Part shown: positions 26,806 through 32,800 of the stretch, piece after piece
How the letters are laid out: the number at the start of each line of letters is the position of its first letter
Numbering within the stretch: position 1 is the stretch's first letter
NCBI RefSeq assembly: GCF_009914755.1
Contig: NC_060947.1
DNA length: 64,000 nucleotides
Reading direction: 5' to 3' (one strand)
DNA from: the human T2T-CHM13v2.0 reference genome, Homo sapiens
Position numbers and translations under genes: made by a program
Notes under the pieces: model-generated
Seen by the model: the letters and a program-made list of their open reading frames with translations, nothing else
The model's database searches: none
What the model was told of the DNA's origin: nothing

Positions 26806-29800
26806 CTGGAGGAAAGAACAATGCACCCTCAAACTGGACAGGTAGACAATTCCACACTCTCAACAACAGGATCCTTCTTAACCACTACTGCCGCTCAACA
26901 ACCAAATTGCTTCCATATCCCTACTGTGCCTGCCTCCCAGATATTTTGGCTGGTACCTTCTAACCCTCCTACAGAGTCTGCCTTTGGAGAGATTGTCTAC
27001 CAGCTTCACTAGATTTTTAGAACCCCAGCATGTTTACCCTGTACAACAGTGCAAGGAAGTGGATACTCTTATTCTAATTTTCAGAGAAAGGCACTGAATC
27101 TCAGAGAGGTCGAATAAGTTGATCAAGGTCACATAGTTTGTGAGTGTTGGGGTGAGGAATAAAAACTGTATTCCAACTCCAGGGCCCACACTCTTAAATA
27201 TTAGGCTGGACTGTTCCTTGGATCTACCTGTTGGCCTTCCACAATATTGAGAACACCCTGAGGACTGCACCCAACACATTCCCACAACACTGACCCCAAG
27301 CTGGGATGGGTGCTCCCACCCACAACATAGCACTAACCTGGAATTGCGGCCAGAGGTAGTGATGAAGGTCCACATGAAGGCAAGATCAGAACCCTGAGAC
27401 CATCCTTCCACTTCAGAGACAACAAACACCACCACCTGAGAGTTACACAGGCTTTACATGCTCACACAGTGATCCCCAGTCAGAATCTTGCTTGACACTC
27501 ACACAGAAGAGGGGACAGACCAGGACAATTGTTCACTTGGAGTCAGGCAGATGTGGCAGGGATGGGGAAGGCAACAACAGGAACAATCAGCTCCCAGTGA
27601 TAGGGCCCCTATCATGCATGGGGCCCTGTGAAAACCACAGGTTCACTTGATTCCTATTTCACAGTAGCCCAAGAAATGGGTTATTATTAGCCCCATTTTG
27701 CAAATGAGGAAACAGAAAGGTTAAGTAACCAGCACAAGTTCACAGAGTAAGGACCTGGGATGAGAGCTGTCAAACTCCACAGTCTGTGTCCTTAATGCAC
27801 GCCTGAGCTGTGCAGGGCAGACAGGCATGGACCTAGGTCAGATCAGGGTGGTTTGTGGGCAAAGTGGGGGTGGGAAAACACAGAGGGAAGAAGAGGAAGG
27901 GATGGAATGAAATCAGAGAAGCTGGGAGAATTCTGGGAAGGAGCCCAGCCAGTGGGAGGGAGCAGTGGGGGATCTGGGGAGGGGACTCTGCAGTCATTCA
28001 CCTTCCTTGAACACTCCGTTGACAGAAAAGCAGAGCATCCTTTCCTGAAAAGGAAGCGCTCAGGTGCTCAGGATCCTCCTTAACCTCCTACCCACCTCTG
28101 GCTCTCTGGGCCTGCCCGAGGGAGGAAGCAGGTGTTCACGGTCTGGTACCACATGTCCACCAGGATGGAGGTGAAGTCATGCTGAGTTTCAGGCAATGCA
28201 CTGAGGGAGTCCACGTTTCGTGGACATTTTGTGTGCTTTAGCAGCTTCCTCTGCAGGTCTATAGAGAAGAAGAGAAGCAAGGAAGGTGTGGGGTTGGGGG
28301 AGCTGCCATACCCTGGTCCTTGGCCCCTGTGATTGTTCCTGTCACACTCCTTTACCCTGCCCAATCTTCTCCATCACACACTTACAGGGGTCTTTGAGAA
28401 TTTTTATATTCCTGCTATCCTTGAAGTACTTGCACAAGTTGCTCCTAGGAGAAAAAGAGGAGCAGGAGTGGGTGGTCCGGCCAGTGTGGGCATTTCCAGG
28501 AGTTGGCCTGTGTCTGCTGGGGAGACACACAGCCCCAGAGCAGGGTCTGAGCCGTGATACTCATGGGGCTGAGTCCTTGGGGTCGAAGGGAATAGCCAAG
28601 GAGAAGCAGGCCTCATCGTGGTAAGCACCGAGGAGACCCTGTCGATCTCCAGAGTCATAGATCGAGTAATACCTGTGGGGAAGCAGTGAGGATAGGCTAT
28701 CTCTGTGGCCTGGGCCCCAGATGAGACTTGAAAACTCCCAGGCTGCACGGGTGGCCCAGCCTGTCTCAGCCCTCCCCTTCCTCATGGTCCCAGGGATACT
28801 CACTGCTGCAGGAATTGCAGGACTAAATGCTTTAGGGTCTCAGATCCAGTAAAGTTTTCCTGAAATCAAAAGACAATTTGGATCTATGCGGTGGACAAAG
28901 CCTCCCTTACAGCAACCCAAATCTTGCTTGGTCCTTCTTCCTCACCTTGCAGGGTTTCATTGTCTCAGAGCTGTCAATGTCAACAATCACTGGTGCGGAT
29001 AACTCTCGGCCGTCCTGGAGAAGGAAAGAGGAAGTCAGCAGTGGAGACCAAGGAGGTGGAGCTGGATGATCGATAAGATGAACATGCCCAGGGAGACAAG
29101 CATCAGAGGCTAGGTGGGAAATGGCCCTGGAAATTCCAGTGGGTGGCTTTCTCATGGGGTGCTGGACATCTCTACTATCACATGCAAATGTGTGTGTGGG
29201 GGGGGGTGGCGGTGGGGGGACACATTTTCCAGGGAGAATATTCTTGTCTTTTTCAGGAATCCATGCCTGTAAAATGGATGAGGGTCTGATACAAGCATGT
29301 AATCTAGGCAAGACCCAAAGGACTTGAGGGCAGGCGTGGAGGTCCTTTTCTTGAGTAAGAGGAGACAATGATGACGGTATTATACATACTTACCAGGCGT
29401 AACAACTTGGGGAAACAATCCCGGATGGCACTGTCCAAAACCAAAAATTGAATGAAGTGACTGACAGTTCAGGGTTGCACAGTCTCTCTCCCACTCCCTC
29501 TCACACTCCTCCCTCTCCTTCCTCCTGGTTAGCTTCCATCTAGACTGTCCTGACTCCCTTTTCTCCAGTGCCACAAGAAGCAGCATTGGGAGCCCAGGCT
29601 CCAGGGCTTTCTTCCTCTCCCTCCCTCCCCTTTGCCCAAGTCACCATGGAAGGCTCTGCAGGGAGCAGGAAATGGGGTGGGAGCCCAGGGCTCTGCCACC
29701 TCACTGGCTGTCCATCAACCTGCCTGACCAGGCCCTGGCCAAGACCAGGTCAGCCCTTAGGGATGGCCCAGGATGCTGGGACACGGAGGTGAGTGAGGCC

Positions 29801-32800
29801 GGACTCAGGAGGCAGGAAGCGGAAGGCAGAGGGGACAACAACAGAAACGGGGTGAAGGTAGGGGAGGGACGGATGGGTGAGACATAGGAGAGGAGAGACA
29901 AGGGAGAAACAGGATGCAATGCAAAGGGAAGGGAAAGACTCTCTACTGCGGAGGTGGAGTTCAGGGAGGAGAAGAGGAGAAAAGGGCTCCCCTGCTGCAG
30001 CCCTTTCCCTCACTGCTCCCTGGCTGGCCCCGGGGACCGAGGCAGGAAAGGAAAACATGCGCCTGTTGGGCTGGGGCCCACTGGTTGCAGCTGGAGCCTT
30101 CCTCACCTGTGTGAGCTCAGTCTGAGCTGGGCATGGGAAACAGAGCAGCCACGGGGACAGGAGACCTTCTCCCGGGAGGAGTGAAGAGTCAGGCCCCAGC
30201 TCAGCATGGGGTTCAGAGTCTGGGGACCCCCTCTCCAGACCACTGCATTCTCTTCTGATGGTCCCTGACTCCTGTGCCCCTCTGTGCTGACGCCTTGACC
30301 GAGGAATGCTACCCATCTCGGGCTACCCAGGGCTCCTCTGAGGGCCCAGGCAGGACGATGTGAGGTGGAGAAGGAGGGAAGGTGGGGCAGTGCCCTGAGA
30401 GGCCTGTCCTTCTGTCTTCTCAACCTCCTCTGCCCTCTGCCTTCCACTCCTGCCTCAGGAACGTGGCCCGCTTCTGGACCCTTGACGTAGGAAACCCAGG
30501 TTTCTCCCCAAGGAGGGCCCAGCTCCTGGCATTGGGCCAGAGGAAGAGATGGCATGACAGCAGCCACCCGGGGCCCCAGCCCTCAGTATGGGGCAGGGAA
30601 GCCCCCATGCCAGCCCAGGACAGGTGGGGGGACCTTTTTGGAGCAAGAGAAGGAGAACCCCTCTCGGGACAGGGGAGGGAAGCCCCATCTCAGCATGGAG
30701 GCAGGAAGGCCTGTCTCAGCATGAAGCCCCGGACTAAAGGACTCTTCTCGGTCCAGGGCACCAGCATCTGAATACTGCTGGTCCTGGGGAGGTGGGGGAG
30801 CCCCACTTCCTGGAGCACACTCACAGAGGGCACACTGGAGGAGGCTTGGTGGAGACAGGCGGGAAACACACCCCAGAGCAGGTGAAAAGGGGACCATGTC
30901 AGAGGAAGGAAAGGAGACCTCTAAGCACAGATGAGTGAGTGACAGAGAGAGAGGAGAGAGAGAGAGAGAGAGTAGGAAGGGAGGTCTGTGGTCCTCCCAG
31001 AGGACCAAGGCTGCTTCTTCCTGCAGAAGGGCACCTTCAGACACAGCTCAGTCACCCAGGGAGCAAAGGTGCCCAGGAAGGGTGACAGGGGTTGCCACTG
31101 ACCTTACATAGGCAGACTGGTCCGAGAAGGTGCTGCACAACGGGTTCCCTTCTAGCCATAGCTCTTCGAGCTTCAGCCCTTTCACCTTGCCCAACTCCCA
31201 CGCCGACTCCAGCTAAGAAAGATGGGGAGGAAACTGGAGAAGGAGGGCCAGGGAAAGAGAGACACCCAGGACCCTGGGCCCTGAATTCCCCCGGCCCTCA
31301 TAGTCACCCACAGGTGCCACTGCCTGGCTGTTGCCATTATCCTGATGTGTCCTGCCCTCCACCCAAAGTTGATCTGGCTCCCCCTTCTCACCTTATTTTT
31401 GGAGAGATTCAGGGTCTTGACTTTGGGAGCCTTCTCTGTAATGTCAGAAAGGCCATCCAGCTGGTACAGTTTGTTGTTGCACAAGTTCAAAGACAACAGC
31501 TTTGGGTCAAGAAGAGTTAGAGTGGCGGCTACTATCTTGGGCCTCAGAGACAAATCTGCCCTCCACCTTATCCCTTCCACCCCTCTAACTAAATACCAGC
31601 ACTGAGCCTAAGGCTTCACCTCAGGGAAATTTCTTTCAGTGATCTTCAGGGTGGCAGCCATGCAGTTTCTTCGATTCAGGATTATATCAATGTCACGGCC
31701 CATCAAGTCTTGAAGAAGCCAAGAGAAGGGAATCGGAAGGCTGGGAGGGCCCTGGCTGGACCAGAGCCAGCCCCAACCCCTCTGTAAATTGCCATTCCTA
31801 AGTCTCCCTCCCAGGCAGACCTCTCTGCCCCCGCTTGTCTTAGAATTGCTGCTGTCAGCCTTACCTGGGTCAAAGCGGAGATTCTGGAGATCAAGAGCTT
31901 GCTGGGAGACATTGTACCGTTTGTTCATGGTCAGCTGCAGAGATAGAGATGAAGACAGAGGCTCTGGGGCTCTGGTGATGGTGGTGGTGGTGGTGGTGGT
32001 GGTGACAGGGAAAGAGGGGGCCAGGGGAAGAAGAGGTGGGTCCAGGAAGTGGACATACAATGATCCTTGAGTCTGTATTACCTTTAGCATCTCCATTTGG
32101 CCTGGCTTCAACTTATTCTTCACAGAGTAGGGCGCAGTAAAATGACTGACAAATATACATATCTGCAGGAAGGCAGGGTGGTAAGTACCAGGACCTCCAA
32201 TCCCAAAGACAATGACCAGTCCCCTGGCCTGTCCTCCTGCCCAAAGACTAAGTACAGGGAATGCCCTCAGCACACACCTTTTGGTTCTCATCATCATAAA
32301 TCTTATAACTGACATCCTTCAATGCAGAGGCAGCACTAGCAACCTGGACAAAGAAGCATGCCCGATTTCGGATGTAGTGGAACTACAGGGAGTGAAGGCA
32401 AGAGCAACAGCGTCAGAGGCCAATGGCCCCTGCTGAGCCAGGTCTCTCTCCATCCCCTGTGTCCACTCATCTGGCTTCACCATCCTCTCTTACATCAACC
32501 GGAGTGAAGGGGACACTGCAATTGCTCTGGATTGAATTCATTAGCCATGCCTTGTCATACTTTATCCCATAAGGAATCTAAGCATAAAAAGAAGAAATAG
32601 CAGAGAAGGGAGAGACAACATGGAACTAAGTTTGGAGAACAGAAACAACCAGCTGTTTATTTTTCCAGCTTTCTACTTAGCTTGGACTTCTAAAGAAGGG
32701 ACCACTGACATGATTTCTTATTTTTGTGCCAAATATGGATTCCCTAAGCTACCTTTCTCTCCATTCTGAAGCTCTCTTTCAAATAATCAACTTAGGGTGT

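What the first reader, a model, noticed from the sequence alone, without database searches (positions are those of the whole stretch)
29431..31102. NXF5 appears to retain the NXF1-type cassette intron: candidate intron-retention / self-export module giving a 250-aa short NXF5
Seen: a 110-nt exon, a 1672-nt GC-rich intron with no recognisable transposon, and a 37-nt exon; neighbouring introns are only about 80-380 nt. Established: in NXF1 the intron between the 110- and 37-nt exons (intron 10) is retained, carries a CTE bound by NXF1, and yields a short RRM-LRR isoform. Inference: NXF5 kept this module. Retention would give 698+55 nt = 250 aa (RRM, LRR, tail), avoiding the NTF2 and UBA lesions. 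I do not know of this being described for NXF5, but I could not search the literature.
Basis: partly seen in the sequence, partly recalled or inferred. Interest (0 to 1): 0.88.

Follow-up and report, generated by a model that had tools for sequence, protein, structure and literature searches.

The report
NXF5 cassette intron with decayed CTE
This NXF5 intron is a true copy of the NXF1 intron that carries an RNA export signal, but that signal has decayed here, and the intron's near-identity among the X-linked NXF genes looks like recent copying between gene copies, not a preserved function.

Summary
The anatomy is real. A 110-nt exon, a GT..AG intron of 1672 nt and a 37-nt exon sit exactly as described. 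The intron is the paralogue of NXF1 intron 10, which has the same 110/37 exons, the same GTCAGT donor and an in-frame TGA after 17 read-through codons. The 250-aa arithmetic holds only with the 108-nt exon form (31392-31499).

The key inference fails. At the site homologous to the NXF1 CTE, 7 of 21 core positions invariant in the NXF1 unit and five of the six viral CTE units are changed, identically in all five X-linked copies. A covariance model gives 1.6 bits there against 57.2 for NXF1. The CTE fold is also lost.

Unexpectedly, the intron core is 89-99.5% identical among NXF2, NXF2B, NXF3, NXF4 and NXF5, while flanking exons and introns are 56-93% identical. Divergence comes in steps with sharp edges:
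- NXF3: 36% | 4.8% | 11.3% | 42%.
- The high identity also appears in the pseudogene NXF4.
- Differences within each step are Poisson-spread.

This pattern indicates gene-conversion tracts of several ages, not constraint. Intron retention itself could not be tested. Reads and the tail peptide cannot distinguish NXF5 from NXF2/NXF2B.

The parts
31103..31212 (-). 110-nt exon (LRR part: [36 protein letters not shown]), same size as NXF1 exon 10
   Evidence: 74% identical to NXF1
29431..31102 (-). 1672-nt cassette intron, paralogue of NXF1 intron 10 (1801 nt); GC 0.60, CpG o/e 0.15
29394..29430 (-). 37-nt exon, same size as NXF1 exon 11
31097..31102 (-). Donor GTCAGT. It is the only one of the 18 NXF5 donors with C at +3, and all six human NXF copies share it.
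31048..31104 (-). Read-through codons R + [17 protein letters not shown] + TGA. NXF1 has 17 codons and a TGA at the same place. The tail is identical in NXF2/NXF2B.
30268..30331 (-). Decayed remnant of the CTE. It reads GATGGGTAG (30309-30317) where NXF1 has GACGGGTAA, and AGCACAGAGGGG (about 30277-30288) where NXF1 has ACCTAAGACAGG.
29585..30949 (-). Intron core shared with NXF3 at 4.8% divergence (30949-29978) and 11.3% (29977-29585). Flanks are 36-42% diverged. Read as gene-conversion tracts.
28445..31934 (-). Stretch 99.6% identical to both NXF2 copies (15 mismatches in 3490 nt). It spans 7 exons and the cassette intron. Flanks are 84-98% identical.
30933..30972 (-). (CT)n run. It is 6 nt shorter than in the NXF2 copies and is the only indel between them inside the intron.

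Best explanation
The intron is the X-linked paralogue of NXF1 intron 10. It was inherited when the NXF cluster on Xq22 arose from an NXF1-like gene. It keeps the family's exon framing, the unusual GTCAGT donor and an early in-frame stop, but its constitutive transport element has decayed at about the neutral rate and should no longer recruit NXF1. Its near-identity among NXF2, NXF2B, NXF3, NXF4 and NXF5 comes from repeated non-allelic gene conversion confined mostly to the intron, with at least three ages of tract, each followed by neutral decay. The NXF5 copy is in effect a copy of the NXF2 intron. A retained-intron transcript would encode a 250-aa RRM-LRR protein, but nothing in the sequence marks it as an exported, translated isoform. 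Shown here: homology, CTE decay and the step pattern of divergence. Inferred: loss of export function, and conversion as the mechanism.
For: Homology:
- Whole-genome search hits chr11 at 65% over 1018 nt.
- That locus has a 1801-nt intron between 110- and 37-nt exons. This is the length Wang et al. 2015 give for NXF1 intron 10 (PMC4338338, section read).

CTE decay:
- The NXF1 unit and five of the six viral units (three retrovirus-sized contigs) share invariant GACGGGTAA and ACCTAAGACAGG; the sixth unit has one change, GACGGGCAA.
- All five X copies have 2 of 9 and 5 of 12 of these positions changed.
- Model R1 scores 57.2 bits for NXF1 and 1.6 bits for the NXF5 site with filters off.
- The NXF1 CTE folds into a hairpin with a 6+6 inner loop (z -2.09). 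The NXF5 site does not (z +0.25).
- The 64-nt CTE block is 67% identical to NXF1, counted by eye from the block, against about 62% for the rest of the intron.

Gene conversion:
- Intron against flanks: NXF3 89% against 56-76%; NXF4 95% against 79-93%.
- Gene-wide, the NXF3 baseline upstream of the intron is 59-81%.
- Divergence levels are discrete, 0.4 / 1.4 / 4.7 / 11 / 29-43%.
- Change points are sharp (2*dLL 277 for NXF3, 85 for NXF4), and differences within segments are Poisson-like (index of dispersion 0.58-1.14).
- The pseudogene NXF4 shares the pattern. NXF5, NXF2 and NXF3 are syntenic with mouse Nxf2, Nxf7 and Nxf3, so they predate the split (PMC3652825, passages).
- Transitions are 62-74% of differences, and 12-26% are CpG transitions, although CpG is depleted.
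- A polarity-fair test finds no site-specific constraint (75% against 80% expected, p=0.17).
- A second NXF3-like tract lies at 27183-28872.
Against: - The cassette intron is the most similar segment in all three paralogue comparisons, and the NXF3 tract stops inside the intron at both ends. Selection for a homogeneous intron would also give this.
- The non-consensus GTCAGT donor is shared by all six copies. The TGA after 17 codons is shared by NXF1, NXF5, NXF2, NXF2B and NXF4. Both fit a kept propensity for retention.
- A first test suggested that sites matching NXF1 vary less among X copies (odds ratio 0.37, p=2.5e-7). I attribute this to not knowing which allele is ancestral, and the fair test removes it, but a small deficit remains (75% against 80%).
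- Elements that work like a CTE without sequence homology are known (Wang 2015 discussion), so loss of the motif does not prove loss of export.
- No other mammal and no RNA data were available.
Confidence: 0.72

Rival explanations
1. The intron is kept alike across the X-linked NXF genes by selection. When retained, it acts as a regulatory or export module that no longer needs the canonical CTE, for example to make short RRM-LRR proteins from NXF2, NXF3 or NXF5.
For: - It is the most similar segment in every paralogue pair, and the NXF3 tract is bounded within the intron.
- The GTCAGT donor and early stop are shared.
- CTE-like elements without homology exist (PMC4338338 discussion).
- There is a slight deficit of variable sites at NXF1-matching positions.
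Against: - Divergence levels are discrete and differ between copies (1.4% against 4.7% in one stretch, 11% for both in the next) rather than scaling with background distance.
- Differences are evenly spread, with no conserved blocks.
- The pseudogene NXF4 shows the same identity.
- Identity to NXF1 (70% over the aligned 65%) is no higher than in other introns (54-70%).
- The tail shows no coding signature: 13 differences from NXF1 fall 6, 5 and 2 on codon positions 1, 2 and 3 (counted and the alignment).
- The NXF3 tail is frameshifted.
Confidence: 0.13
2. One reading: NXF5 still carries a working NXF1-type CTE in this intron and exports its own intron-retaining mRNA to make a 250-aa short NXF5.
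For: - The intron is homologous, and a recognisable remnant lies at the homologous site.
- The ORF arithmetic is right.
Against: - Seven of 21 invariant core positions are changed, including 3 of 6 in the AAGACA inner-loop strand and 2 of 4 in its flanking ACCU helix. Wang 2015 reports no inner-loop change in 36 mammals.
- The model score is 1.6 against 57.2 bits.
- The fold is lost.
- RefSeq calls NXF5 a transcribed pseudogene and lists no exon spanning the intron (hub table).
Confidence: 0.04
3. The intron hosts an independent gene that explains its conservation: a small ORF, a microRNA hairpin or another RNA.
For: - Sense ORFs of 188, 150 and 104 aa exist.
- Sub-threshold microRNA-model hits cluster at 30352-30462.
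Against: - The ORFs are broken by stops or frameshifts in NXF3, NXF4 or NXF1 and show no third-position excess.
- The best Rfam hit is 23.8 bits against a gathering score of 88.
- The hairpin is no more stable than shuffles (z 0.21).
Confidence: 0.03

Closest known systems
NXF1 (TAP) intron 10 with its CTE, retained to give small Nxf1 (Wang et al. 2015, PMC4338338, sections 5, 6 and 11 read; Li et al. 2016, PMC5170612, passages read; Li et al. 2006, recalled, not held)
   Same: It sits at the same position between 110- and 37-nt exons. It has the same GTCAGT donor and a TGA after 17 read-through codons. Sequence is alignable along the whole intron, and a remnant lies at the CTE site.
   Different: The CTE core is mutated at 7 of 21 invariant positions, and the fold and model score are lost. 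No retained transcript is documented. The host gene is annotated as a transcribed pseudogene.
Retroviral CTE of type-D simian retroviruses (units found in loci L019-L021)
   Same: It descends from the same cellular element as the NXF1 CTE. The flanking TAGCC and GGGT are still shared.
   Different: The viral units keep GACGGGTAA (GACGGGCAA in one of the six) and all keep ACCTAAGACAGG. The X-linked NXF copies do not.
Gene conversion among Xq22 gene families (BEX/WEX/GASP; Winter and Ponting 2005, PMC1274310; title, abstract start and gene table seen)
   Same: It lies in the same Xq22.1-q22.2 region. Non-coding sequence is homogenised among paralogues while neighbouring sequence diverges.
   Different: Here the tract is an internal intron of the NXF genes. 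I found no description of this.

Membership tests
NXF1-type constitutive transport element (CTE) | Core motif GACGGGTAA on the 5' side, invariant in the NXF1 unit and five of the six viral units (GACGGGCAA in the sixth) | tested here: not met
   The X copies read GATGGGTAG, 2 of 9 changed.
NXF1-type constitutive transport element (CTE) | Invariant core motif ACCTAAGACAGG on the 3' side, containing the AAGACA inner-loop strand | tested here: not met
   The X copies read AGCACAGAGGGG, 5 of 12 changed. No match with 3 or fewer mismatches at the site.
NXF1-type constitutive transport element (CTE) | Hairpin with a 6+6 inner loop between GCC/GGC and GGGU/ACCU helices | tested here: not met
   NXF1 folds this way (z -2.09). 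The NXF5 site folds otherwise (z +0.25). Model R1 gives 1.6 against 57.2 bits.
NXF1-type constitutive transport element (CTE) | Binds NXF1/NXT1 and drives export of intron-containing RNA | not testable with these tools
   This needs a reporter or binding assay.
NXF cassette intron (paralogue of NXF1 intron 10) | Lies between 110-nt and 37-nt exons in the same phase | tested here: met
NXF cassette intron (paralogue of NXF1 intron 10) | Sequence homology to NXF1 intron 10 | tested here: met
   E 3.9e-24 and 1.3e-28; alignable end to end.
Retained intron giving a short NXF isoform | Polyadenylated, cytoplasmic transcripts that keep the intron | not testable with these tools
   No RNA data were available. 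The hub table lists no such RefSeq exon. No paper was found.
Interparalogue gene-conversion tract | Much lower divergence than the flanks, with sharp boundaries | tested here: met
   NXF3: 36% | 4.8% | 11.3% | 42%, 2*dLL 277.
Interparalogue gene-conversion tract | Differences within a tract spread at random, with no conserved blocks | tested here: met
   Index of dispersion 0.58-1.14, p 0.33-0.81. The fair constraint test gives p=0.17.
Interparalogue gene-conversion tract | Paralogues cluster by species, not by orthologue, in other mammals | not testable with these tools
   No other mammalian genome is held.

The most novel reading that the evidence does not exclude
The cassette intron is the focus of concerted evolution in the X-linked NXF cluster because it still works when retained. 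In this reading, a CTE-independent retention or export module is shared by NXF2, NXF2B, NXF3 and NXF5 and gives short RRM-LRR proteins in testis or brain. Conversion that keeps the copies alike is favoured, while conversion reaching the diverged exons is purged.
Probability: 0.1. Interest if true: 0.6.

Novelty: new member of a known kind. Interest (0 to 1): 0.3.

Why it matters
- The CTE-based self-regulation described for NXF1 appears to be specific to NXF1 in humans. The X-linked family kept the intron but lost the element.
- Any read-based or peptide-based claim of NXF5 intron retention will be confounded by NXF2 and NXF2B. They are 99.5% identical over the intron and encode the same tail.
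- The intron-limited, multi-age homogenisation among genes whose exons are 20-40% diverged is a clean example of concerted evolution of non-coding sequence on Xq22. I did not find it described for the NXF genes.

Tried and rejected
- Rfam scan of the intron: 31 hits, all far below gathering scores.
- The apparent hairpin at 30352-30462 is no better than shuffles.
- ORFs inside the intron are not conserved.
- The intron is not a CpG island (observed/expected 0.15).
- A first constraint test gave p=2.5e-7. I rejected it as an artefact of calling the majority allele ancestral. The fair version gives p=0.17.
- The best model hit in the intron (29688-29716, 9.7 bits, E about 0.02) lacks the whole core. 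Its 14-base identity to a viral CTE flank made me look for an internal duplicate of the CTE. Local alignment scores were within shuffles, with 137 of 200 and 93 of 200 shuffles scoring at least as high.
- The recalled degenerate recombination-hotspot 13-mer occurs once in the intron (30365-30377) and once in the second NXF3-like tract, out of 8 matches in the window. This is too weak to use.
- Papers not held: Li et al. 2006 and Teplova et al. 2011.
- The repeat finder failed on strand syntax and was not repeated.
- Work by Mamon and colleagues on the 'cassette intron' is recalled only. It was not found in the library.
- No supplements were consulted.
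Full report
**1. Observation**

Read on the minus strand, the window shows:
- a 110-nt exon (31103-31212);
- an intron beginning GTCAGT at 31102 and ending ...GGACAG at 29431 (1672 nt);
- a 37-nt exon (29394-29430) followed by GTAAGT.

The intron has GC 0.60 and CpG observed/expected 0.15, so it is not a CpG island. Its neighbours are 86-379 nt long.

Reading through the donor gives [22 protein letters not shown].

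It holds only with the alternative 108-nt exon 31392-31499. With the 44-nt exon of NR_159738.1 the NXF frame is open for only 155 nt upstream of the donor.

**2. Homology**

A search of the window's own genome with the intron found five related places:
- two on chrX at 99% identity;
- one on chrX at 93%;
- one on chrX at 91%;
- one on chr11 at 65% over query positions 512-1529.

Order, strand and spacing match NXF2/NXF2B, NXF4 and NXF3 as tabulated in PMC1274310 and described in PMC3652825.

The chr11 locus holds a 1801-nt intron between a 110-nt and a 37-nt exon. This is the length given for human NXF1 intron 10 by Wang et al. 2015 (PMC4338338). It carries GACGGGTAAG and CCTAAGACAGG 30 nt apart, at intron positions 780-872.

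A six-way alignment shows the NXF5 intron is alignable with NXF1 intron 10 from end to end. All six copies begin GTCAGT. In NXF5 this is the only one of 18 donors with C at +3. NXF1 also reads 17 codons and a TGA after the donor.

So the intron is the true paralogue of the NXF1 cassette intron.

**3. The CTE**

I collected seven CTE units: human NXF1 and six units from three retrovirus-sized viral contigs. The NXF1 unit and five of the six viral units share invariant GACGGGTAA and ACCTAAGACAGG. The sixth viral unit reads GACGGGCAA and keeps ACCTAAGACAGG.

At the homologous place (about 30268-30331) all five X-linked copies read GATGGGTAG and AGCACAGAGGGG. That is 7 of 21 positions changed, including 3 of 6 in the AAGACA loop strand and 2 of 4 in the ACCU helix strand.

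Wang et al. report no change in the inner loop across 36 mammals.

| Test | NXF1 CTE | NXF5 site |
|---|---|---|
| Fold | hairpin with 6+6 inner loop, z -2.09 | no such fold, z +0.25 |
| Covariance model R1 | 57.2 bits (by construction) | 1.6 bits, filters off |

No other CTE-like site appears in the window or the paralogue loci.

The 64-nt block is 67% identical to NXF1 (counted from the block). This is about the same as the rest of the intron (62%). Because the NXF1 element is conserved down to fish, those changes fall on the X-linked lineage. The element has therefore decayed at no less than the neutral rate. This last step is inference.

**4. The unexpected part**

The intron is far more alike among the X-linked genes than its surroundings.

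| NXF5 compared with | Cassette intron | Two flanking exons | Two flanking introns |
|---|---|---|---|
| NXF3 | 89% | 62% and 76% | 56% and 56% |
| NXF4 | 95% | 93% and 86% | 91% and 79% |
| Both NXF2 copies | 99.5% | see below | see below |

The NXF2 similarity is part of a 3490-nt stretch (28445-31934) with only 15 mismatches. Its flanks are 84-98% identical.

Gene-wide, the NXF3 baseline upstream of the intron is 62-81% in exons and 59-71% in introns.

Within the intron, divergence from NXF5 takes discrete levels.

| Intron positions | NXF2 | NXF4 | NXF3 |
|---|---|---|---|
| 1-150 | 0.7% | 1.4% | 29% |
| 151-1050 | 0.4% | 1.4% | 4.7% |
| 1051-1500 | 0.4% | 11% | 11% (NXF4 to NXF3 also 11%) |
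| 1501-1672 | 1.2% | 8.5% | 43% |

Change-point fits place sharp edges for NXF3 at about 30949, 29977 and 29585 (36% | 4.8% | 11.3% | 42%; 2*dLL 277). Differences within segments are Poisson-like (index of dispersion 0.58-1.14).

Transitions make up 62-74% of differences, and 12-26% of differences are CpG transitions.

A second stretch of raised NXF5-NXF3 similarity lies at 27183-28872.

Two facts from PMC3652825 frame this:
- NXF5, NXF2 and NXF3 are syntenic with mouse Nxf2, Nxf7 and Nxf3, so they predate the human-mouse split.
- NXF4 is an apparent pseudogene.

The simplest account is therefore gene conversion between paralogues in at least three waves, each followed by neutral decay.

**5. 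Tests for constraint**

- A first test seemed to show that sites where NXF1 matches the X consensus vary less among X copies (odds ratio 0.37, p=2.5e-7). This is biased, because at a variable site the majority allele is often the derived one.
- The fair version asks whether either allele matches NXF1. It gives 75% observed against 80% expected (p=0.17).
- Identity to NXF1 is 70% over the 65% of the intron that BLAST aligns. This is no more than other introns (54-70%).
- The read-through tail shows no coding signature. Its 13 differences from NXF1 fall 6, 5 and 2 on codon positions 1, 2 and 3. The NXF3 tail is frameshifted by a 19-nt deletion.
- ORFs inside the intron are not conserved.
- The hairpin seen by microRNA models is no better than shuffles.

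**6.

Retention itself could not be tested. Points in its favour:
- the shared non-consensus donor;
- the G-interrupted pyrimidine tract at the acceptor;
- the shared early stop.

Points against or neutral:
- The hub's RefSeq table lists no NXF5 exon spanning the intron and calls the gene a transcribed pseudogene.
- In the held library I found no paper describing retention or a CTE in NXF2, NXF3, NXF5 or Nxf7.
- Wang et al. say only that BLAST found no CTE outside the NXF family.

The suggested checks need care:
- NXF5 differs from both NXF2 copies at only 9 intron bases plus a 6-nt (CT)n length difference.
- The tail peptide is identical in NXF5, NXF2 and NXF2B.

**7. Limits**

- No other mammalian genome and no expression data were available, so conversion against constraint rests on human paralogues alone.
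- Li et al. 2006 and Teplova et al. 2011 could not be read.
- The essential role of the loop bases rests on Wang et al.'s conservation statement and on my recollection of older mutagenesis.
- Work on 'cassette introns' by Mamon and colleagues is recalled only.

**8. Verdict**

- The new feature is intron-centred concerted evolution, most likely mechanistic rather than functional.

Noticed in passing
window 28445-31934: The central 3.5 kb of NXF5, comprising 7 exons and 7 introns, is 99.6% identical to both NXF2 copies (15 mismatches). Outside it, identity falls to 84-98%. This looks like a very recent NXF2-NXF5 conversion covering the LRR-coding exons.
   Followed up: partly
window 27183-28872: This is a second stretch of raised NXF5-NXF3 similarity (85% overall). 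Within it, the 59-nt exon 28386-28444 is closer to NXF3 (93%) than to NXF2 (88%). The X-linked NXF genes are mosaics.
   Followed up: partly
window 31392-31499 vs 31392-31435: The RefSeq transcript NR_159738.1 uses a 44-nt form of this exon, which breaks the NXF reading frame. Only the 108-nt form keeps the frame from the ATG to the cassette intron.
   Followed up: yes
window 29699-29716 (-): A 14-base string, TGGACAGCCAGTGA, is identical to the 5' flank of one viral CTE unit (L019). A search for an internal duplicate of the CTE scored within shuffles, so I treat it as chance.
   Followed up: yes
window 30365-30377 (-) and 28075-28087 (+): Two of the 8 window matches to the recalled degenerate recombination-hotspot 13-mer CCNCCNTNNCCNC lie in the two conversion tracts. 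Eight matches against 1.5 expected in the window reflects CT-rich sequence. The link to conversion is speculative.
   Followed up: no
L019-L021 vs L006 2210-2273: The viral CTE units also share flanking bases with the human NXF1 CTE (CTGG..AGCCA before the core). This fits the published view that the virus captured the cellular element.
   Followed up: no
window 30316 (-): The C-to-T change in the decayed CTE (GACGGG to GATGGG) creates the ATG of the 188-aa intronic ORF. That ORF is not conserved in NXF3, NXF4 or NXF1.
   Followed up: yes
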